From a virus: a DNA stretch of 64,000 nucleotides. Location of the stretch: positions 32,001-96,000 of the IMG/VR virus record IMGVR_UViG_3300020048_000054; one strand, written 5' to 3'. Made by a program: the position numbers and the translations under genes. The notes under the pieces were generated by a model. It saw only the letters and a program-made list of their open reading frames with translations. It was not told where the DNA came from and made no database searches. Shown here piece after piece: positions 42,166-50,547 of the stretch (within the stretch, counting starts at the first letter, position 1; each line of letters begins with the position of its first letter).

Positions 42166-43536
42166 ATGTCAGGAATACGAAGAAACACAAAAAGAACATT
42201 CACACAGAAAGACAAGAGATCATTTCATCTTGTTGGCAGTGATCTGTTCTTTGGATTGGTGTTTGCTTCGAAGCAGAGTTATTACTATAAGGTAAATAGA
42301 AACTTAGTAACAACTCCGTCTTTCACATTCTATAGCAATCAGACTAAAGTAATAATTGATTATAGTAATTCTAAGAACGCAGATGATCTGTCGTATATCG
42401 CTTCATTCTTTAATTCTCTTACTTCAGGAATTACATTTGAATATACCGATACTATCTATGTGAATGATGCATCTGGTACATCAGCTGACCTTTCTGGCAT
42501 TTATCAGTTCACATCATTTGAACAAAATAAGTTAATAAAAGCTAACTTAATTTCAAATGCTAGTATGCCCTCTTCTAGAGATTTCTATAATTCTAAATTC
42601 TTTACAGACACACCACAGCTGAATAAATCCGGTGGAGTTTCCGATACTCAACAAAGAACCAATATAATTAAAAATACTATTCCAAATGGATTGTATTCAT
42701 TTACTCGGTTGGGTGTTGTGGTTGGTGACTATGTTGATTTTTCTGGAACTGACAATAATAAATGGATGAAGTTAAAAGTAAAAGATCTATTCATCGATAC
42801 TGATGGCTTTGAATGTATTGAAGTAGAATCGGCAATCGCTGATGAGAATCTGATAGGAAATGGTATCCTAGTTAATTTATACTTCGAAGGAGAATCTTCA
42901 ACAGAAGTCAACTTGAATGATAAGACTTATGGAACCTGCGTGCTTACATTTGCAAATGGTTCTAGTAGATGTTTACCATGCCAAAATGCATTTCAATGCA
43001 CAGATAGATCAGCACAGCTAAAAGCAGTATCGGCAACATATACTCCATACGTCACCTGCGATGATATCAATTCACTATCAACAACAGTTGCAACAGTTGC
43101 ATCAACAAATACAACTGCTGTAGTGCCGACTCCCACCGTTGCTCTAACAACAACCGATGCCACCACAACATTAGCTATATCAAGCACTGTTAGACCTAAA
43201 ACTACAGTTAAGAATATAAGTATAAAGCTAGCAACAATAGGCGGAAAACTAACAATAACTCAAGATGGAATAGCATTAAACGAAGTTGCTGTTGGAATTG
43301 ATACCACTATAAAGATATCAACTAGCGATCCGACTTTATTAAATTATTCGTTTGCGTTCTCTTCTACAAATCCAGAAAAAATAGTAACACCAATCGTGGA
43401 TAATATTATTAATATTGGAAAGCCAGGAACATCAAGTTCATATATTTCAATACAGACTGGTAAACAAAATAAAGAAATATATCTAACGTCTTCTTCTAAT
43501 AGAAGTTTGTTCTTTAAAATAAAAATAGTTAAATAA
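42166..43536 (+). CDS. Hypothetical protein (probably structural)
   Basis: 456-aa ORF translationally coupled to the previous gene. Confidence 0.5.
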   Translation: MSGIRRNTKRTFTQKDKRSFHLVGSDLFFGLVFASKQSYYYKVNRNLVTTPSFTFYSNQTKVIIDYSNSKNADDLSYIASFFNSLTSGITFEYTDTIYVNDASGTSADLSGIYQFTSFEQNKLIKANLISNASMPSSRDFYNSKFFTDTPQLNKSGGVSDTQQRTNIIKNTIPNGLYSFTRLGVVVGDYVDFSGTDNNKWMKLKVKDLFIDTDGFECIEVESAIADENLIGNGILVNLYFEGESSTEVNLNDKTYGTCVLTFANGSSRCLPCQNAFQCTDRSAQLKAVSATYTPYVTCDDINSLSTTVATVASTNTTAVVPTPTVALTTTDATTTLAISSTVRPKTTVKNISIKLATIGGKLTITQDGIALNEVAVGIDTTIKISTSDPTLLNYSFAFSSTNPEKIVTPIVDNIINIGKPGTSSSYISIQTGKQNKEIYLTSSSNRSLFFKIKIVK

Positions 43537-43559
43537 AAACACCCCTGTTGCCAGAGGTG
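43535..43559 (-). terminator. Intrinsic terminator ending the tmRNA coding piece
   Basis: Minus strand CACCTCTG-GCAA-CAGGGGTG-TTTT. Confidence 0.8.
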
Positions 43560-43820
43560 AGTCAATTCAGATGCGGGATGACCAGTCCCCACTGCTTTAA
43601 GCAGCCATTGCTAATTGGTTAGCAATCATGGTTTGCAACTGTTTATTTACGTTTCTTGTTACCCGAAACGGACATCTACTTCTTCACTACTACTTGCCAA
43701 TCGATACCTTATCGGGCCCCTTAACAACTAATACTTGGGTTGGTTCCCGTGAACCGAATGGACCCGAGGGGAGTCGAACCCCTGTGTTGTGCAACTCTCG
43801 TTCCAATATCAACAATGTCA
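43540..43820 (-). ncRNA. ssrA: Circularly permuted (two-piece) tmRNA
   Basis: The acceptor piece (T-arm AGGGG-TTCGACT-CCCCT, then CGGGTCC-A, 43783-43759) comes before the coding piece (5' GGGCCCG at 43719). The 7-bp acceptor stem has G3:U. pk1 is CGTTTC/GAAACG plus GTAAC/GTTGC. The tag ORF ANQLAMAA* spans 43623-43597. Confidence 0.9.
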
Positions 43821-43821
43821 A

Positions 43822-43904
43822 TGCAAGAGGAGGGATTCGAACCTTCGTAGAAATGAATCAGCAGATTTACAGTCTGCCCTCGTTGTCCGCTTGAGTACTC
43901 TTGC
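43822..43904 (-). tRNA. tRNA-Tyr(GTA)
   Basis: Cloverleaf; anticodon arm GCAGA-CTGTAAA-TCTGC; long variable arm; no encoded CCA. Confidence 0.92.
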
Positions 43905-43912
43905 TTATTATA

Positions 43913-44293
43913 TCAAAGCTTAGCGCGTGTTAAATTTAATAGTTTATGAATTTGCAAATCACACTGAGTGTCTCTTTGTTTACCTGGCCAGAAGATATAA
44001 TCTTTGGCAATATTCTTCTTCAAACTTACAAGCAATGGCAGAATAACCTTTTCTATTTCTCCCATTCGTGCCTTTAGCAACTCATCGTATTGATTCTTAA
44101 CAGCAATAGCCCCATCACATGTGGAGTTAATTTCTAGGATCATATCGAGCTTAGCTTTAATCGCTGCAATCTCATCTGAGTCTGCAGGGGGTGGTGCTAT
44201 AAGCTCGCCTAGTTCGCTTTCATTGACTGTACTAAAACCAAAGTCAGTATTTAAAAGAGAAGGGTCGATGTTGTACGAGAAAGGATCTGCCAT
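43913..44293 (-). CDS. Conserved hypothetical T4-like phage protein
   Basis: DFGFSTV..E and ILPLL..LKKN..KDYI.WP motifs. Confidence 0.7.
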   Translation of the reverse strand: MADPFSYNIDPSLLNTDFGFSTVNESELGELIAPPPADSDEIAAIKAKLDMILEINSTCDGAIAVKNQYDELLKARMGEIEKVILPLLVSLKKNIAKDYIFWPGKQRDTQCDLQIHKLLNLTRAKL

Positions 44294-44312
44294 AGTATTA
44301 TATATTCGTAAA

Positions 44313-44385
44313 TAGGATGTATAGGATTCGAACCTATTGCCACCTCGTTATAAGCAAGGCTGGGCCTCCCAGACCCCCACATCCC
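44313..44385 (-). tRNA. tRNA-Ile(TAT), non-canonical D-arm
   Basis: Acceptor GGGATGT/ACATCCT; anticodon arm CCTTG-CTTATAA-CGAGG; T-arm ATAGG-TTCGAAT-CCTAT. Confidence 0.75.
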
Positions 44386-44421
44386 GTGTGGTGTATCAAT
44401 TATACACTGATGTTTGGTAAG

Positions 44422-44649
44422 TTACAACCAATAAATGTTACTTTTTTTATTGGTTACATGTCCCTTTTCATTTTTCACCAAGTAATTACTATTCTGTCGA
44501 TCTTCATCGTTACCTAACCTGTAGTTGATTTGCTCTACTCCTACTGGCAGTAGTTTAGTCTTATCTAACAATTCAATTACTTGCTTAGTAACAGCAACTG
44601 CTTCTTCTTCTGAAAGTTGTAGAGGAATATCAATATGAATTCTGAACAT
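44422..44649 (-). CDS. Hypothetical protein
   Basis: Start MFRIH with AAGGAG RBS; the upstream extension in the ORF track overlaps tRNA-Leu. Confidence 0.6.
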   Translation of the reverse strand: MFRIHIDIPLQLSEEEAVAVTKQVIELLDKTKLLPVGVEQINYRLGNDEDRQNSNYLVKNEKGHVTNKKSNIYWL

Positions 44650-44664
44650 AATCTCTCCTTTAAA

Positions 44665-44748
44665 TAGCACGGGTGGGACTTGAACCCACAAGACTTTACA
44701 GTCGGCAGATTTTAAGTCTGCTGCGTATGCCAATTCCGCCACCGCGCC
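44665..44748 (-). tRNA. tRNA-Leu(TAA)
   Basis: GCAGA-CTTAAAA-TCTGC anticodon arm; long variable arm; GGTTCAAGTCC T-loop. Confidence 0.93.
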
Positions 44749-44772
44749 ATGATTGCCCCCGTGGGCAATGTT

Positions 44773-45066
44773 TTAAGCCTTCTCGTTCATGCGATCAATT
44801 GTACGCTCAAGTGTCGAAATACGGTCACTGTATTCACGGCGAAGTTCGTCTTCACGAGCAAATTCAGTAGCAGCTCGTAGATCTTCCTTAGTGTTTCGCG
44901 CATAGCGGAGTAGTGTTGAAACACCAAAACCAAGACAGATTACAGCAGCAACGCCAGCACCGGAAACCCAATCGGATGATTCAATCGTTGCAGAGTTAAG
45001 AAAGACTGCACCAAAAACAACAGCTCCAACAAAATAGTGATGATAATTAACTTCACGGTAAAACAT
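44773..45066 (-). CDS. Small membrane protein (two hydrophobic helices)
   Basis: Start MFYREV after AAGGA; two hydrophobic segments and a charged C-terminus. Confidence 0.55.
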   Translation of the reverse strand: MFYREVNYHHYFVGAVVFGAVFLNSATIESSDWVSGAGVAAVICLGFGVSTLLRYARNTKEDLRAATEFAREDELRREYSDRISTLERTIDRMNEKA

Positions 45067-45097
45067 AAAATTTCCTTTTTTATAAGGTATGAGTAAT

Positions 45098-45475
45098 TTA
45101 GTATTCAATTCGTTGAACACCATAGTCTGTAGTATAGTGTATTGTATGGAAAACTTCAATACACCAAGGTAAACATTTTTCACATGGCTTGGACATTCGC
45201 ATCTGCCCAAACTTATTAAACCTAACATTAATTAGATGTAGTTTTTTGCCTTTGTCTTCTTTTGTAAGTTTCCTAAAAGCGTCTAGCTCTGAGTGCATTT
45301 CTTCGAAGTTATATCCAATCTCTTTTGCCATTGGATGTGTTTTAAAGAAATTCATGCCAGTTGCAATGATTCTCTTTTTGCATATAATCAGAGAAACATG
45401 TTTTTTCTGCCTTGGTATAGTCAAGCAGATAGGATAAGCCATTTGAAGATATTCTTCTGCTTGAGCAATAACCAT
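45098..45475 (-). CDS. Cytidine/dCMP deaminase-superfamily zinc enzyme
   Basis: H..IIATG.N..KTHP, HSE and SKPCEKC motifs. Confidence 0.8.
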   Translation of the reverse strand: MVIAQAEEYLQMAYPICLTIPRQKKHVSLIICKKRIIATGMNFFKTHPMAKEIGYNFEEMHSELDAFRKLTKEDKGKKLHLINVRFNKFGQMRMSKPCEKCLPWCIEVFHTIHYTTDYGVQRIEY

Positions 45476-45481
45476 GAGTGA

Positions 45482-45509
45482 ATTATAACAAGATACACAA
45501 ACTAGTCAA
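45482..45509 (-). promoter_or_regulatory. Sigma70-type promoter (TTGACT-16-TATAAT) for the deaminase, near-leaderless
   Basis: The ATG lies 6 nt after the -10 box. Confidence 0.65.
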
Positions 45510-45697
45510 GAACTAATTTGAGTATATTTCACTAAAGCTTCCCAATCATCGGTTATATGAACATCTGCTCCTGTTATACCGGGAACTCTTTTACCATCGA
45601 CTATAACATAGGTGCCAGTTATTCCACCAGTTATTCCACCCACTCCGTATTTAAGGTACACAACAGGTATGATGTTTATGTTTTCGTTGAATGCCAT
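45506..45697 (-). CDS. Small hypothetical protein with GITG repeats
   Basis: 63-aa ORF with GGITGGITG..GITG. Confidence 0.5.
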   Translation of the reverse strand: MAFNENINIIPVVYLKYGVGGITGGITGTYVIVDGKRVPGITGADVHITDDWEALVKYTQISS

Positions 45698-45711
45698 ATT
45701 AGTATGTAGAT

Positions 45712-45811
45712 AAAAATAACCGGGGAGTGCCCAACTCCCCGGTCTGACGGTCGAAAGGTAGCGAAGTTCCTTTTTCGCATGAACTGCGTAGTTCGCGAGT
45801 GTAGCCCGTCA
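45712..45811 (-). ncRNA. Candidate structured small RNA with its own terminator
   Basis: TGACGG/CCGTCA closing stem encloses two hairpins, then ACCGGGGAGT/ACTCCCCGGT and a T-run; CATAAATA at 45815-45822. Confidence 0.45.
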
Positions 45812-45840
45812 TGTTATTTATGCATATACATATTTCTACT

Positions 45841-48192
45841 ATGACATGGTTAGAACCCTATAACTCAAATCTCACTACACTTGTTGATATCTACAAATAT
45901 GGTGGTCACCATCATCAGTATCCGGAATTTGCCCAATTCCCAATATCTGAAGTAAATACTTCGGCATTTTTTAGAAATGAAACAGTAGTTGTTAGTAATC
46001 AATCAATTAACTATAGTGCAAATTTTAGTGGATGTACTGTTAATCCTGCTGGCAAATCACACGGAGATAATGGTGGTATTTGGTGTGGTGCTTCTTGCAA
46101 TTCTCAAAGTCGTCCGTGGCCTTTCTGCAAAGCATGGTGGTTGTATTGTGCTGTGGGATCACAGCAGGAGGCTGCGAACAATGGGTGTGCAGATATAACT
46201 CCACAAAACAGCATTGATATTTTTGGTTCTTCTATAGTACCAGATGGTGGTCTTCCATATCCAACAAGACTTATAGATCCATTTGATGTAGATATTATGC
46301 CCATCGATGATCCAGATGGAGATAATCCAATACAGAATTATAGATATTGGAATAATTCTAATCTTTGGTACAATGCATTTAATAATGGTATGGTTTTGAT
46401 TAAAAATAATGGTCCTGCTTATGAAGACGGTGGAGAAGAATATTTAATATCAGTAGGGCATCCAATAACAGCACAACCATGTGAAAGAGATCAAACATTT
46501 TCATTCTTTGATTCAAGTAGCCAACAGACTATAAGTAGGGTATTTCAATGCCCATGTGTTGCTTGGGATCTTCCAGTTTCTAGTTTTGCGTGTTCTGCAC
46601 CAAATGGGATGTTAACTCAAGACAGTTATAGACTATGGGTAATGAAACGAGGACAACAACCAATACCTAGTAGCATATTACGACACAAAATTTTATTGGG
46701 AACTCTTCCCACTAATATAATGGATATTAATAAAGGTTGGCCGGTATATGATGTAGATTCTCATATGAGAGTTTCTAAGTATTTGGTGTTCAAAAAAACA
46801 AATGGTAATATTGATGCAGTACCAGATAGATCTTTAGGAAAAACAGAGATGATTTCGTATGGCGGCTTTACTCAAAATTTGTGGCAGAGTACATTCTCTG
46901 GCCAGGGTGATGATGGACATCCATCTTTTACAATAACACAATCTTCTACTCCAGAAACTATATTCATGGGTTGGAATTATGTGGCAACTAAATGTTCAAG
47001 TAAAATTCAACCATTAGACAAAACCAGCGCAGAAAACCTATATCGTAAAGTGTTCGATGGTGGACCAAACGGGTTTATGTCTATTACTGTAAATCAAGAA
47101 TTGGATCCAGGAGTATTTAATCCAACAAGTTTTAGTACTTATGATCCAAATGATTTTTCAACAGATCCCGCTAGTTATCGCGGTACTTCTCAGGGTGGTC
47201 AACCCGGTAAAGCCGGTCTGGCTTTAGCATTTTCAACTCAAATTCTATTAAAAAATTTAGAGAAACCAGAAATAGTATTTTATCAATTTCCAGGACAGAT
47301 ACAACAACCAGATAATTCAACGCTAGATGCTATATCTGATAATTCCACAAAATTTCCATTAAAAGAATCTCCATATTTGTCTAGAGAATCTAAGAATAAT
47401 ATTTTTGAGAACAGTAATACTATAGCTTTTAATCAACAAACAATGTTGCAAGCAGCAGAATTAAATGAGTTACAAGAAAAATTTTATAAAAATCAAAGCT
47501 TAACTATTCGAGGGTATAATAAGTGGTTAACTAAAGCTAATTTGCAGCAAAACCCAGAAGATATATTTGGCACATATGTTAGAAAAATAAACAGACCGTT
47601 TGATAATTTTGGTTATAGCGCGAACAATATAATTCCATTAGATCCGATGTCTATTAGTATTGGCGCTTCACCAAATGGAACATATACTATAACTGCAAGC
47701 CCAGATCAATATCGTGTTGTTTCTGCACATAAAGAAATAATTAATAATGTAGACAGTTCTTTTCAAGATCAAATAAAATCAAACACCTTTATTAATAATA
47801 TAGATTATATTCACCTATTAGAAAATAAAACCATAAGTGTTGATCTCACCAGCATGACAAATACTCAAGTATGCTGGATAATTTTCACAATTGATACTGG
47901 TAATATAATTACTTGTAATGAATATCCGGAGCTAAAAGATAATACAGGAGGAGACTCTGCAAATGCACCATGTGGTGCATCTAGAAATTTACTAAGAATT
48001 GAAGGTTCTCTTAGTAACACATTGATCTTGATATCTGATATCGGAACAACAACAGTTATATCCAGTATGAATGACAGTCCAGTAAACAATGCAGCAAATG
48101 CAACAAAACCACCAAAATTTATTTTAGCATATGCCAAAAAAGAAAATGGTGTGATAACATTCTACCACTCAAACGGAATCAAGATTCAGTAG
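45841..48192 (+). CDS. Large putative virion protein; C-terminus paralogous to 20025..20759
   Basis: IAF..LQAAELNELQ and CGASR motifs and the terminal N.IKI resemble the 20025..20759 product. Confidence 0.55.
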   Translation: MTWLEPYNSNLTTLVDIYKYGGHHHQYPEFAQFPISEVNTSAFFRNETVVVSNQSINYSANFSGCTVNPAGKSHGDNGGIWCGASCNSQSRPWPFCKAWWLYCAVGSQQEAANNGCADITPQNSIDIFGSSIVPDGGLPYPTRLIDPFDVDIMPIDDPDGDNPIQNYRYWNNSNLWYNAFNNGMVLIKNNGPAYEDGGEEYLISVGHPITAQPCERDQTFSFFDSSSQQTISRVFQCPCVAWDLPVSSFACSAPNGMLTQDSYRLWVMKRGQQPIPSSILRHKILLGTLPTNIMDINKGWPVYDVDSHMRVSKYLVFKKTNGNIDAVPDRSLGKTEMISYGGFTQNLWQSTFSGQGDDGHPSFTITQSSTPETIFMGWNYVATKCSSKIQPLDKTSAENLYRKVFDGGPNGFMSITVNQELDPGVFNPTSFSTYDPNDFSTDPASYRGTSQGGQPGKAGLALAFSTQILLKNLEKPEIVFYQFPGQIQQPDNSTLDAISDNSTKFPLKESPYLSRESKNNIFENSNTIAFNQQTMLQAAELNELQEKFYKNQSLTIRGYNKWLTKANLQQNPEDIFGTYVRKINRPFDNFGYSANNIIPLDPMSISIGASPNGTYTITASPDQYRVVSAHKEIINNVDSSFQDQIKSNTFINNIDYIHLLENKTISVDLTSMTNTQVCWIIFTIDTGNIITCNEYPELKDNTGGDSANAPCGASRNLLRIEGSLSNTLILISDIGTTTVISSMNDSPVNNAANATKPPKFILAYAKKENGVITFYHSNGIKIQ

Positions 48193-48250
48193 TGGTTTGA
48201 CTTAACTTTTGTTTTAATTCTTCAATTTCTTTCATCAATCTATAAATGAC

Positions 48251-48288
48251 ATCATCCCCTCTATTTTCGTAGAGGGGATGATTTTTTA
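48251..48288. terminator. Intrinsic terminator between convergent genes
   Basis: atcatcccctcta-ttttcg-tagaggggatgat followed by a T-run. Confidence 0.75.
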
Positions 48289-48299
48289 ATAGAGATTCT

Positions 48300-48512
48300 T
48301 CAGTCTTGCAGAAAGAGTCGCTTGCTCTCATTTAGCTTTCCTTCGTTACGAATGCGGGAATCGCTTATGATCTTTTCATTAGCGTCATTCCAACCAACAG
48401 CCCATTCTTGCCAATAGCTGTTAGCTCCTTCGTGAACATTGGATGCTTTTTCTCCGCCATTAATTCTAGCTGTATATCCTGCGTCGTAGGCAGAACCGGG
48501 TGTATATGTCAT
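48300..48512 (-). CDS. Rmf/CrpP-fold-like small protein
   Basis: AYDAGY.A..G..W.EW..GW.DA pattern resembles ribosome modulation factor. Confidence 0.5.
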   Translation of the reverse strand: MTYTPGSAYDAGYTARINGGEKASNVHEGANSYWQEWAVGWNDANEKIISDSRIRNEGKLNESKRLFLQD

Positions 48513-48640
48513 TTTGACTTATCCTTTTTCTTTTTCTTTTTCTTATTGAAAATCATATCCCAATTTTCAGACCAAACTTTAGAATCTACTGGTCGGTACT
48601 TATCTCCCTTACCTGCACCATGCTTACCATTTGAACCCAT
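48509..48640 (-). CDS. Small basic hypothetical protein (GKGDKxRP..NWDxIF type)
   Basis: Reads MGSNGKHGAGKGDKYRPVDSKVWSENWDMIFNKKKKKKKDKSK*; AGGA RBS; stop overlaps the next ATG. Confidence 0.65.
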   Translation of the reverse strand: MGSNGKHGAGKGDKYRPVDSKVWSENWDMIFNKKKKKKKDKSK

Positions 48641-48673
48641 AGGTATCCTCTTTAATATCTATAATCTGCAATT

Positions 48674-49006
48674 TTATATCTTTGCAATAATCAACCCGAT
48701 AATGGCGATAATGCAACCAATAATAGTTTTCGTATCAATTCTTACGTTGTAAAGTAATATTGGAAAAACTATACACAGTATTGTGGCACCAACATCCCAA
48801 AGAATATTCGTTAGTACTAATTCTTTTGGTGACTTGATATTGCGTATTAAGAAAAACCAACCATTTGTACTAATGAATGCAGCAAGCATGCATAACCCAT
48901 AAACTGTCCAAGGTTTATCTGCATATAATTTATTATAGCATAAATCTGCATATATCCAATTGGCAATGCTAACACCAATCAAAGATGAAATAATTACAAT
49001 CCACAT
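48674..49006 (-). CDS. Small four-helix membrane protein (SMR/EamA-like)
   Basis: Four hydrophobic segments in 110 aa; start MWIVII at 49006. Confidence 0.55.
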   Translation of the reverse strand: MWIVIISSLIGVSIANWIYADLCYNKLYADKPWTVYGLCMLAAFISTNGWFFLIRNIKSPKELVLTNILWDVGATILCIVFPILLYNVRIDTKTIIGCIIAIIGLIIAKI

Positions 49007-49008
49007 AA

Positions 49009-49081
49009 CTCCTCCGACTGGATTTGAACCAGTGACATGCGAGTTAACAGCTCGCCGCTCTACCAACTGAGCTACAGAGGA
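49009..49081 (-). tRNA. tRNA-Asn(GTT)
   Basis: GCGAG-CTGTTAA-CTCGC anticodon arm; canonical D and T arms. Confidence 0.95.
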
Positions 49082-49095
49082 CCATCATAATAAAA

Positions 49096-49169
49096 CATTC
49101 CCGGTTGGATTCGAACCAACGACCACTGGCTTAGAAGGCAAGTGCTCTATCCAACTGAGCTACGAGAAT
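49096..49169 (-). tRNA. tRNA-Arg(TCT)
   Basis: CTTCTAA anticodon loop; TAGCTCAGTTGGATAGAGC D-arm; GGTTCGAATCC T-loop. Confidence 0.92.
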
Positions 49170-49202
49170 ATTTGCGATAGTATTTCATACCGCATCACTA
49201 AC

Positions 49203-49535
49203 TTAAACCGTAAGCTTCAATCCACTGTTTGCGCCAACAGGTCCATTACTTGGAACCACTAGCCCAGAGATCATTCCCTGATACTGCCCGGACATCTCTG
49301 AATCGATGTCAACGACAAACATAACAAACTTATCTGGAATTGAAATGCCAGTCTTATGTGTCTCTTCACTCAAGTAAGGCATCCACTTTGCAAATGCCAA
49401 CTTTCCTTGACCAACAGAGAACAGAATTGCAGAATCCTTGAGGATGTGACATTCTTCACCCTTGTTATACTTGCAAATAATTTCTTCACCCGAAGTCAAA
49501 CGAACCATTTTAATATTACTCATAATTTTCCTCAA
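49203..49535 (-). CDS. Conserved T4-like small protein (Sm-like fold candidate)
   Basis: IKMVRLTSGEEII, W.PY and Y..SGLVVP motifs. Confidence 0.7.
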   Translation of the reverse strand: MRKIMSNIKMVRLTSGEEIICKYNKGEECHILKDSAILFSVGQGKLAFAKWMPYLSEETHKTGISIPDKFVMFVVDIDSEMSGQYQGMISGLVVPSNGPVGANSGLKLTV

Positions 49536-49753
49536 TCACAATTACATTTACCTAGAAGCTTTTCCCAAATACTACATTTCTTTGGTACTGTTGGGACACT
49601 ACAACAAAGTTCAGTGTACCCACGATAATCAGCTACATCTTTTGGGTTTTCTTTTGCTCTGCTAAATGCACGAGCCACTTCTGCTGCAGTGAGAAGTAAG
49701 TCAATACATCTTCCATCAATATGTGCTTTTGTATAAAAATACTTTGGTTCCAT
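49532..49753 (-). CDS. Hypothetical protein
   Basis: GGAGG RBS; coupled to the downstream gene. Confidence 0.55.
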   Translation of the reverse strand: MEPKYFYTKAHIDGRCIDLLLTAAEVARAFSRAKENPKDVADYRGYTELCCSVPTVPKKCSIWEKLLGKCNCD

Positions 49754-49780
49754 ATAGATCCTCCATAATATCTATACACG

Positions 49781-49811
49781 AAAAGGGGGTGTTGATTGCT
49801 CAACACCCCCT
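49781..49811 (-). terminator. Intrinsic terminator
   Basis: Minus strand AGGGGGTGTTGA-GCAA-TCAACACCCCCT-TTT. Confidence 0.75.
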
Positions 49812-49830
49812 CGCAGAAACAAACATCCAA

Positions 49831-50100
49831 TCAAAGCATATAGCGCGAACCATCGGGACGGAACCCGTAGGTGCGATCACCGGGATGTGTGTCAACCATA
49901 CTGTAACGAGTCTTACCCGTTGCAGAAATATCAGTCTCAACTTGCCAGTTGTCATGACGCTCAACAAGCTCACGAATGTTGCTCATGGTGGCGCGAAGAT
50001 TCTTCACACCAAATCGAGCGCGTGCTTCGGAGGCGGTAATAGTCTTACCGTTTGCGAGATAGTTAATAACCTTACGAGTCTTGCTAATAGTGTTAGCCAT
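49831..50100 (-). CDS. Helix-turn-helix DNA-binding protein
   Basis: VINYL..GKTITA.EA.ARFGV.NLRA..S.IR winged-HTH pattern. Confidence 0.7.
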   Translation of the reverse strand: MANTISKTRKVINYLANGKTITASEARARFGVKNLRATMSNIRELVERHDNWQVETDISATGKTRYSMVDTHPGDRTYGFRPDGSRYML

Positions 50101-50182
50101 AATTTACAATCCTTTACTAGACTTTGTTAGAAGAGATTAATGGTGTAAGTCTATACAATCACCATTAGTTTAACTTAGTTCA

Positions 50183-50365
50183 TTATACACAATTTGAATC
50201 TGGTGTCAACACTTTTGTCCAAGAAAGCGAAGATTCTTCTGCTTTCATATGATCGCGAAAAGCGAAACGCTTAACGACTTCATTATCCAAATAATACAAG
50301 ACAACGTAGATAACATCTTTCTCGTTTTCATCAATATACATTGGGCATATGCTAGCAGTCTTCAT
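50183..50365 (-). CDS. Hypothetical protein
   Basis: AAGGAG RBS; 60 aa. Confidence 0.55.
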   Translation of the reverse strand: MKTASICPMYIDENEKDVIYVVLYYLDNEVVKRFAFRDHMKAEESSLSWTKVLTPDSNCV

Positions 50366-50387
50366 AGTTTAACTCCTTTAAATACAG

Positions 50388-50461
50388 TGACTCCAAGGAG
50401 ATTTGAACTCCTGTTATGGCATTGAAAGTGCCGTGTCCTAACCAGGCTAGACGATGGAGCC
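50388..50461 (-). tRNA. tRNA-Glu(TTC)
   Basis: GGCA-CTTTCAA-TGCC anticodon arm; GTCTAGCCTGGTTAGGAC D-arm. Confidence 0.92.
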
Positions 50462-50474
50462 TAACACTTGCAAA

Positions 50475-50547
50475 TGCCTCCACTAGGGATCGAACCTAGG
50501 ACCATTCCGTTAAAAGCGGAATGCTCTACCAGCTGAGCTATAGAGGC
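50475..50547 (-). tRNA. tRNA-Lys(TTT)
   Basis: TTCCG-CTTTTAA-CGGAA anticodon arm; canonical arms. Confidence 0.95.

What the first reader, a model, noticed from the sequence alone, without database searches (positions are those of the whole stretch)
43535..43821. Phage-encoded circularly permuted, two-piece tmRNA
Seen, on the minus strand directly after tRNA-Tyr: (i) An acceptor piece ending in the T-arm AGGGG-TTCGACT-CCCCT and CGGGTCC-A (43783-43759). (ii) A 39-nt intervening segment. (iii) The tmRNA 5' end GGGCCCG-ATAAGGTATCGA (from 43719), which pairs with (i) as a 7-bp acceptor stem with G3:U. (iv) Pseudoknot pk1 (CGTTTC/GAAACG plus GTAAC/GTTGC), an 11-nt spacer, and the tag GCT AAC CAA TTA GCA ATG GCT GCT TAA = ANQLAMAA*, with the stop codon in a hairpin loop. 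(v) A possible second pseudoknot (GGGA/TCCC plus GGTCA/TGACT) and a terminator. Inter-piece helices are plausible (TTGGCAA/TTGCACAA; GATGTC/GACATT). Established: G3:U is the alanine identity element, the 11-nt spacer matches E. coli, C-terminal AA is the ClpXP-type degron, and two-piece tmRNAs occur in Alphaproteobacteria, some cyanobacteria and some betaproteobacteria. The phage tmRNAs I know of are one-piece. Inference: this is a compact permuted tmRNA, possibly of independent origin, that lets the phage run or rescue trans-translation. The acceptor piece's 5' end may be made by processing of the upstream tRNA-Tyr. No SmpB gene is in this window.
Basis: partly seen in the sequence, partly recalled or inferred. 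Interest (0 to 1): 0.92.

Follow-up and report, generated by a model that had tools for sequence, protein, structure and literature searches.

The report
Two-piece tmRNA gene in a phage
An uncultured T4-like aquatic phage carries a genuine rearranged ("two-piece") gene for tmRNA, the RNA that frees stalled ribosomes; the call is sound, but such genes are already known from cultured phages, so it is a new member of a known kind.

Summary
ARAGORN calls a permuted tmRNA, and Rfam's tmRNA_permuted model scores 70.8 bits (cut-off 47). I found at least 66 related IMG/VR phage contigs. Across 56 distinct sequences the acceptor stem, T-arm, inter-piece helices P2a and P2c, PK1 stem 1, the tag hairpin and a second pseudoknot all show compensatory changes, and G3:U70 is invariant.

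Phage-encoded two-piece tmRNAs are already published (Melnitz, HTVC008M, S-CAM1). I confirmed S-CAM1's gene here at 128 bits on the cyano model. This scan has also noted the same family on other DNA.

This ANxLAMAA family fails all three lineage-specific models (alpha 6.6, cyano 34, beta 37 bits). It forms its own long-branched clade, and its origin is unresolved: an independent permutation is neither supported nor excluded.

No SmpB gene is on this or five related contigs, so host factors are presumably used. The window's spacer is a plain 39 nt, whereas relatives carry 5 to 167 nt, many with a conserved structured RNA. It is a real gene of a known kind and moderately interesting.

The parts
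43822..43904 (-). tRNA-Tyr (GTA), directly upstream. Its 3' end lies 2 nt before the acceptor piece. CCA is not encoded.
   Evidence: ARAGORN; Rfam tRNA 48.8 bits; the same 2-nt junction occurs in 9 family members.
43759..43821 (-). Acceptor piece. It holds the P2c strand (43819-43815), the P2a strand (43793-43787), the T-arm (43783-43767), the 3' acceptor strand (43766-43760) and discriminator A (43759). It is followed by TTC, not CCA.
   Evidence: Rfam RF04321 alignment; covariation in 56 distinct sequences.
43720..43758 (-). Intervening segment of 39 nt, presumed to be excised. It contains only a weak 5-bp hairpin.
   Evidence: It is replaced wholesale in close relatives (39 nt against about 74 nt) while the mature parts stay the same. 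Family spacers range from 5 to 167 nt. The fold z-score is -0.44.
43671..43719 (-). 5' part of the coding piece. It holds the 5' acceptor strand (43719-43713) with G3 pairing U70, the D-loop analogue (43712-43701), the P2a strand (43700-43695) and the P2c strand (43675-43671).
   Evidence: G3:U70 is present in 56 of 56 sequences; all six P2a pairs and two P2c pairs covary.
43635..43670 (-). Pseudoknot PK1. Stem 1 pairs 43670-43665 with 43655-43650. Stem 2 pairs 43662-43658 with 43639-43635.
   Evidence: Three pairs of stem 1 covary. Stem 2 was fixed by my search pattern, so it is untested.
43597..43623 (-). Tag reading frame: resume codon GCT (43623-43621), then ANQLAMAA, then stop TAA (43599-43597), 11 nt after PK1.
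   Evidence: There are 8 codons in all 66 members, with synonymous changes, TAA or TGA stops, and 10- or 11-nt spacers that break the longer upstream frame.
43592..43604 (-). Hairpin holding the stop codon in its loop.
   Evidence: The sequence shows it. One pair covaries.
43560..43589 (-). Second pseudoknot. Stem 1 pairs 43589-43586 with 43578-43575. Stem 2 pairs 43583-43579 with 43564-43560.
   Evidence: Stem 2 occurs in at least five compensatory versions across the family.
43535..43559 (-). Intrinsic terminator: an 8-bp hairpin plus a T run. It marks the 3' end of the coding piece.
   Evidence: Terminator scan. The hairpin sequence differs in relatives but the structure is kept.

Best explanation
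Window 43535-43821 (minus strand) is a working, circularly permuted ssrA gene of an uncultured T4-like phage.

Shown here: the gene order is acceptor piece, then spacer, then coding piece. All the tmRNA parts are present, and selection maintains the helices and an 8-codon tag across a family of at least 66 phage contigs.

Inferred from established tmRNA and tRNA biology:
1. The gene is co-transcribed with tRNA-Tyr.
2. tRNA 3'-end processing frees the 5' end of the acceptor piece, which is about 62 nt.
3. RNase P cuts before G43719.
4. A tRNA 3'-end nuclease trims back to A43759, and the host CCA-adding enzyme adds CCA, as it must for the phage's seven CCA-less tRNAs.
5. The two pieces stay paired through the acceptor stem and helix 2.
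6. Host AlaRS charges the RNA through G3:U70.
7. Host SmpB and EF-Tu bring it to stalled ribosomes.
8. Translation resumes at GCT 43623 and adds ANQLAMAA, a C-terminal ..AA degron for host proteases.

The likely benefit is more ribosome-rescue capacity during infection. The gene's evolutionary origin is unresolved; its architecture is most like the beta type.
For: - Detection: ARAGORN calls tmRNA*. RF04321 scores 70.8 bits against a cut-off of 47.
- Family: 66 contigs were parsed, giving 56 distinct sequences. 92.8% of cells are paired, against 36-47% when partners are slid. There are compensatory changes in the T-arm, P1, P2a, P2c, PK1 stem 1 and the tag hairpin, and G3:U70 is present in 56 of 56. 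PK2 stem 2 occurs in at least five compensatory versions.
- Tag: always 8 codons, with synonymous changes.
- Spacer: free to change while the mature parts are fixed.
- 3' ends: all seven tRNAs in the window lack CCA and are followed by T, as is the acceptor piece.
- Terminator: present.
- Precedent: S-CAM1 carries a permuted tmRNA in its tRNA cluster, and the literature lists others.
Against: - There are no expression, processing, charging or tagging data.
- There is no SmpB (PF01668) and no CCA-adding enzyme (PF01743) on this contig, which is 60% complete, and no SmpB on five related contigs. Function therefore depends on unknown host factors.
- The alpha, beta and cyano models all score below their cut-offs.
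- The helix Rfam models as P2b has an invariant G-G.
- PK1 stem 2 could not be tested.
- My parser required a paired acceptor stem, so that count is partly circular.
- The promoter of the unit is not identified.
Confidence: 0.88

Rival explanations
1. The RNA is a competitor rather than a helper. It occupies host SmpB and stalled ribosomes in order to replace the host tag with a short tag that has a different fate, or to blunt host trans-translation, as reported for the CDS-less tmRNA-like RNA of mycobacteriophage DS6A.
For: The 8-residue tag is shorter than those of the beta-type bacterial genes I recovered (10 residues). No phage SmpB was found. The DS6A precedent is cited in PMC11915505.
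Against: The tag frame, the resume context and the C-terminal ..AA are conserved with synonymous changes. That argues the tag is translated and works as a normal degron. A pure decoy would not need PK1, PK2 or a tag.
Confidence: 0.08
2. On origin: the ANxLAMAA family arose by its own permutation event in a phage-borne one-piece tmRNA. That would make it a fourth lineage beside alpha, beta and cyano.
For: It fails all three lineage models: alpha 0-28, cyano 24-36 and beta 29-58 bits against cut-offs of 50, 70 and 84. Genuine members score far higher: 128 bits for S-CAM1 on cyano and 234-335 bits for bacterial genes on beta. The family is a 100/100 clade on a long stem with no supported sister group.
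Against: No one-piece relative sharing its PK1, tag and PK2 region was found. The order of elements and the layout of the second pseudoknot match the beta type. Low-GC, phage-like contigs score 96 bits on beta and could bridge the gap. AU tests do not reject a clade with beta-type genes (p 0.20 and 0.28).
Confidence: 0.2
3. It is a decaying relic with no function.
For: None beyond the lack of expression data.
Against: The mature parts are near-invariant beside a freely changing spacer. There are many compensatory changes, and the 8-codon tag is kept in 66 contigs from many samples.
Confidence: 0.02

Closest known systems
Phage-encoded two-piece tmRNAs of aquatic T4-like myophages: Synechococcus phage S-CAM1/S-CAM3, Pelagibacter phage HTVC008M, OM43 phage Melnitz (PMC9004378)
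   Same: A permuted ssrA gene sits among the phage's tRNA genes in a T4-like genome. CCA is not encoded and the spacer is short. I confirmed S-CAM1's gene at NC_020837 108734-108917 (RF04321 99 bits).
   Different: S-CAM1's gene is a clear cyano-type member (128 bits) with a host-like tag of 21 residues as ARAGORN calls it, and Melnitz's is reported as alpha-type. The window's family passes no lineage model, has an 8-residue tag and keeps PK1 plus one downstream pseudoknot. No isolate phage in the collection matches it by blastn.
Betaproteobacterial two-piece tmRNA (Rfam RF01850; Sharkady and Williams 2004, from my own knowledge, paper not held)
   Same: It is the best-scoring lineage model for every sub-type. 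The order of elements is the same: P2, PK1 hairpin, tag, pseudoknot-like hairpin, terminal hairpin. The resume context is similar, and the family's tag ends in ..AMAA like the model's consensus.
   Different: The family scores 29-58 bits against a cut-off of 84, whereas bacterial members score 234-335. The bacterial genes I recovered have 10-residue tags of the ANDERFALAA type, and some of them encode CCA.
Caulobacter two-piece tmRNA (Keiler, Shapiro and Williams 2000, cited in PMC9004378)
   Same: This is the experimentally established case in which one precursor is cut into an acceptor piece and a coding piece that work together. It is the mechanism I infer here.
   Different: It belongs to the alpha lineage. 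The alpha model gives only 6.6 bits here.
One-piece phage tmRNAs (for example in mycobacteriophages and Enterococcus phages, and in IMG/VR loci L002, L010, L016)
   Same: They are phage-borne ssrA genes. Some share the identical 24-nt T-arm plus 3' acceptor strand.
   Different: They have the standard gene order, longer tags and four pseudoknot regions. The shared 24-mer is also common in ordinary tRNAs of many phyla, so it carries no lineage signal.

Membership tests
tmRNA (ssrA), any form | tRNA-like domain: a 7-bp acceptor stem plus a T-arm | tested here: met
   RF04321 scores 70.8 bits against a cut-off of 47. Four of 7 acceptor pairs and 3 of 5 T-arm pairs covary.
tmRNA (ssrA), any form | G3:U70 alanine identity pair | tested here: met
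   G43717 pairs with U43762. The pair is G:U in 56 of 56 distinct family sequences.
tmRNA (ssrA), any form | Short tag frame that starts at an Ala codon and ends in a hydrophobic ..AA, then stop | tested here: met
   The frame is at 43623-43597 and reads ANQLAMAA. It is 8 codons in all 66 members, with synonymous changes.
tmRNA (ssrA), any form | Pseudoknot PK1 just upstream of the resume codon | tested here: inconclusive
   Stem 1 covaries at 3 pairs. Stem 2 is invariant because my retrieval pattern fixed it.
tmRNA (ssrA), any form | Works with SmpB; is alanylated; tags proteins | not testable with these tools
   No SmpB gene was found on six partial contigs. This needs biochemistry.
Two-piece (permuted) tmRNA, RF04321 | The 3' half of the tRNA-like domain is encoded upstream of the 5' half, with a spacer between them | tested here: met
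   The sequence order shows it. ARAGORN calls tmRNA*. The same order is found in 66 contigs.
Two-piece (permuted) tmRNA, RF04321 | The precursor is cut into two RNAs that stay paired | not testable with these tools
   The support is indirect: the spacer evolves freely while the inter-piece helices P2a and P2c covary.
beta_tmRNA (RF01850) | Score at or above the curated cut-off of 84 bits | tested here: not met
   The window scores 37.4 bits and relatives 29-58. Controls score 234-335.
cyano_tmRNA (RF01851) | Score at or above the curated cut-off of 70 bits | tested here: not met
   The window scores 34.1 bits and relatives 24-36. The control S-CAM1 scores 128.
alpha_tmRNA (RF01849) | Score at or above the curated cut-off of 50 bits | tested here: not met
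   The window scores 6.6 bits and relatives 0-28. The control L353 scores 174.

The most novel reading that the evidence does not exclude
The ANxLAMAA family is a fourth, phage-borne origin of the two-piece form: its own permutation event, not a descendant of the alpha, beta or cyanobacterial lineages.
Probability: 0.2. Interest if true: 0.6.

Novelty: new member of a known kind. Interest (0 to 1): 0.35.

Why it matters
The gene shows that an abundant, uncultured clade of T4-like aquatic phages invests in its own ribosome-rescue RNA while apparently borrowing SmpB, AlaRS, the processing enzymes and the proteases from the host. The family is large and varied enough to serve as a natural experiment. 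Its spacers run from 5 to 167 nt, and there are three different arrangements upstream of the acceptor piece. That variation bears on what a two-piece tmRNA precursor needs for maturation. The window's own copy, however, is a plain example, standard tools find it, and phage two-piece tmRNAs are already in print.

Tried and rejected
1. I treated the 24-nt T-arm plus acceptor strand as a lineage marker. It occurs in one-piece phage tmRNAs and, in bacterial genomes of many phyla, in one-piece tmRNAs (mostly Clostridia) and in ordinary tRNAs, so it carries no signal.
2. I thought the conserved spacer element in relatives was a twister or other known ribozyme. Rfam gave no hit even at E up to 10, so I dropped the idea.
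3. I tried MAGs labelled 'Gammaproteobacteria' as a centre for sampling betaproteobacteria. They are tiny genomes with no taxonomy shown and gave nothing useful.
4. The Sharkady and Williams 2004 paper is not held.
5. blastn of the window's gene and of a typical family member against isolate phages matched only the neighbouring tRNA-Tyr gene or a short stretch of the tRNA-like domain.
6. The TATAAT next to tRNA-Tyr ends 2 nt before the tRNA, so I rejected it as that tRNA's promoter.
7. A tree of the tRNA-like domain plus PK1 and tag left the deep forks unresolved.

Full report
**What is there.** I read the region on the minus strand.
- tRNA-Tyr lies at 43904-43822.
- Two bases later comes an acceptor piece. 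It carries the 3' strands of helix 2, a T-arm (43783-43767), the 3' acceptor strand (43766-43760) and discriminator A43759.
- A 39-nt spacer follows (43758-43720).
- The coding piece starts at G43719 with the 5' acceptor strand. It continues through the D-loop analogue, the 5' strands of helix 2 and pseudoknot PK1 (43670-43635).
- After an 11-nt spacer comes the tag frame (43623-43597), then a hairpin with the stop codon in its loop, a second pseudoknot (43589-43560) and an intrinsic terminator (43559-43540 plus a T run).

ARAGORN calls a permuted tmRNA. Rfam 15's tmRNA_permuted model RF04321 scores 70.8 bits against a cut-off of 47, E 1.4e-11 for the whole window.

**The genome.** The window is part of a 109-kb IMG/VR virus record, estimated 60% complete. 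It has a T4-type gp32 whose nearest cultured relatives are cyanomyoviruses at about 54% protein identity. No psbA was found on the contig, and the host is unknown.

**Relatives.** A 24-nt pattern found seven near-identical genes. In these the mature parts are almost invariant, while the spacer is replaced wholesale: 39 nt against about 74 nt of unrelated sequence. That is what an excised segment should look like. A gp32-syntenic contig gave a more distant copy with the tag ANELAMAA. A pattern from the PK1-to-resume region then retrieved 67 contigs. All twelve contigs I tested pass RF04321, at 51-98 bits.

**Covariation.** I joined each member's acceptor and coding pieces and aligned 56 distinct sequences.
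- 92.8% of cells are paired, against 36-47% when the 3' partners are slid by 1-3 columns.
- Compensatory changes occur in 3 of 5 T-arm pairs, 4 of 7 acceptor pairs, all 6 P2a pairs, 2 of 5 P2c pairs, 3 of 6 PK1 stem 1 pairs and 1 pair of the tag hairpin.
- G3:U70 is G:U in 56 of 56 sequences.

There are three caveats. My parser required a paired acceptor stem. PK1 stem 2 was fixed by the retrieval pattern. The helix Rfam draws as P2b has an invariant G-G and is not supported.

**The tag.** All 66 parsed members encode exactly 8 residues, starting at a GCY codon 10 or 11 nt after PK1 and ending in ..AA and a stop. The window has ANQLAMAA; others have ANELAMAA, ANYMAMAA and AAPMAMAA, among further variants. 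Synonymous changes, the use of both TAA and TGA, and the 10- versus 11-nt spacers all support this frame. The spacer difference also shifts the upstream frame that ARAGORN extended.

**Processing context.** All seven tRNAs in the window lack an encoded CCA and are followed by T, as is the acceptor piece. The same 3'-end pathway can therefore serve both. No CCA-adding enzyme and no SmpB were found on this contig, and no SmpB on five related contigs (50-76% complete), so host supply is likely but not proven.

The region upstream of the acceptor piece varies across the family:
- tRNA-Tyr abuts with a 2-nt gap in 9 contigs, including the window.
- An unannotated cloverleaf-like element abuts in 19.
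- A TAAATA box, which resembles the T4-type late promoter, lies within 16 nt in 24. A further 12 have a one-mismatch version. The background rate is 0.8% per 16-nt window.

**Comparison with what is known.** The claim that phage tmRNAs are all one-piece is out of date.
- Buchholz et al. 2022 (PMC9004378) describe a two-piece ssrA in OM43 phage Melnitz. They count 53 ARAGORN-permuted forms among 133 distinct phage tmRNAs, and their Table S1 lists S-CAM1, S-CAM3, HTVC008M and others.
- The 2025 tmRNA database paper (PMC11915505) holds 79 phage sequences and created RF04321.
- I confirmed S-CAM1's gene, which RefSeq does not annotate. It scores 99 bits on RF04321 and 128 bits on cyano_tmRNA, and has a host-like tag.
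- Earlier notes of this scan report the same family and other phage two-piece tmRNAs on other DNA.
- None of the searchable papers contain these tag sequences, and no isolate phage in the collection matches the family by blastn.

**Lineage.**
- The window scores 6.6 bits on the alpha model, 34.1 on cyano and 37.4 on beta. Five relatives score 0-28, 24-36 and 29-58. All are below the cut-offs of 50, 70 and 84.
- Controls behave as expected. Bacterial beta-type genes recovered from metagenomes score 234-335 bits, an alpha-type gene scores 174, and S-CAM1 scores 128 on cyano.
- Two contigs, one of them low-GC and phage-like, score 96 bits on beta, which suggests a gradient.
- In the database paper's phylum table, permuted forms whose best model is beta turn up sporadically in many phyla, so a best hit to beta is weak evidence of ancestry.
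- The family's order of elements and its second pseudoknot resemble the beta type.
- A maximum-likelihood tree of the tRNA-like domain plus PK1 and tag gives the family 100/100 support on a long stem (0.59) with no supported sister group.
- AU tests do not reject a clade with beta-type genes (p 0.20 and 0.28).

The origin is therefore unresolved. An independent permutation is possible, but nothing shows it.

**Verdict.** It is a new member, within an unplaced sub-family, of a kind already published for cultured aquatic phages and already recognised by standard tools.

Noticed in passing
Relatives, e.g. L224:7660-7731, L222, L248; not in the window: Most spacers of 71-99 nt hold a conserved structured RNA. 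It has an outer 3-bp stem that swaps strands in some members, two hairpins whose loops can pair (one compensatory change in L248), and often a third covarying hairpin with a CCTAGG loop. Rfam gave no match even at E up to 10. If the spacer is excised, this RNA would be released as a discrete piece.
   Followed up: partly
L229:5330-5500 and L230, L238, L264, L275: A third spacer class of 165-167 nt has no Rfam match and no convincing ORF.
   Followed up: partly
L236, L249, L256, L274 and ten others: The spacer is only 5-6 nt, so the acceptor stem is nearly a closed hairpin in the precursor.
   Followed up: no
L256:11462-11546(-), L249:4446-4545(-) and 17 others: A cloverleaf-like element of about 85-100 nt has a 6-7-bp closing stem and three arms. 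It lies between tRNA-Tyr and the acceptor piece and is preceded by its own CTAAATAA box. Neither ARAGORN nor Rfam calls it a tRNA.
   Followed up: partly
Family loci, 16 nt upstream of the acceptor piece: An exact TAAATA box, resembling the T4-type late promoter, is present in 24 of 66 contigs, and 12 more have a one-mismatch version. The background rate is 0.8% per 16-nt window. This suggests late expression in those phages. The window lacks the box.
   Followed up: partly
NC_020837.1 108734-108917(-) (L282): Synechococcus phage S-CAM1 has a clear cyano-type permuted tmRNA (128 bits) that is not among the annotated features of its RefSeq record.
   Followed up: yes
L335:997-1576, L401:316-705 (metagenome contigs, GC 0.35-0.39): These are low-GC, phage-like contigs with permuted tmRNAs that have 10-residue tags, spacers of 91 and 224 nt and an unusual TGCGAAT T-loop. 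L401 scores 96 bits on the beta model. The L335 spacer begins with an ATG-led open frame.
   Followed up: no
window 43822-50547(-): The window has seven tRNA genes (Tyr, Ile, Leu, Asn, Arg, Glu, Lys). All lack an encoded CCA, and six of the seven are followed by TT.
   Followed up: yes
window 44427-44399(-): The only sigma-70-like promoter match near the cluster lies upstream of tRNA-Ile (10 of 12 matches to consensus). It may drive the tRNA-Ile, ORF, tRNA-Tyr and tmRNA stretch.
   Followed up: no
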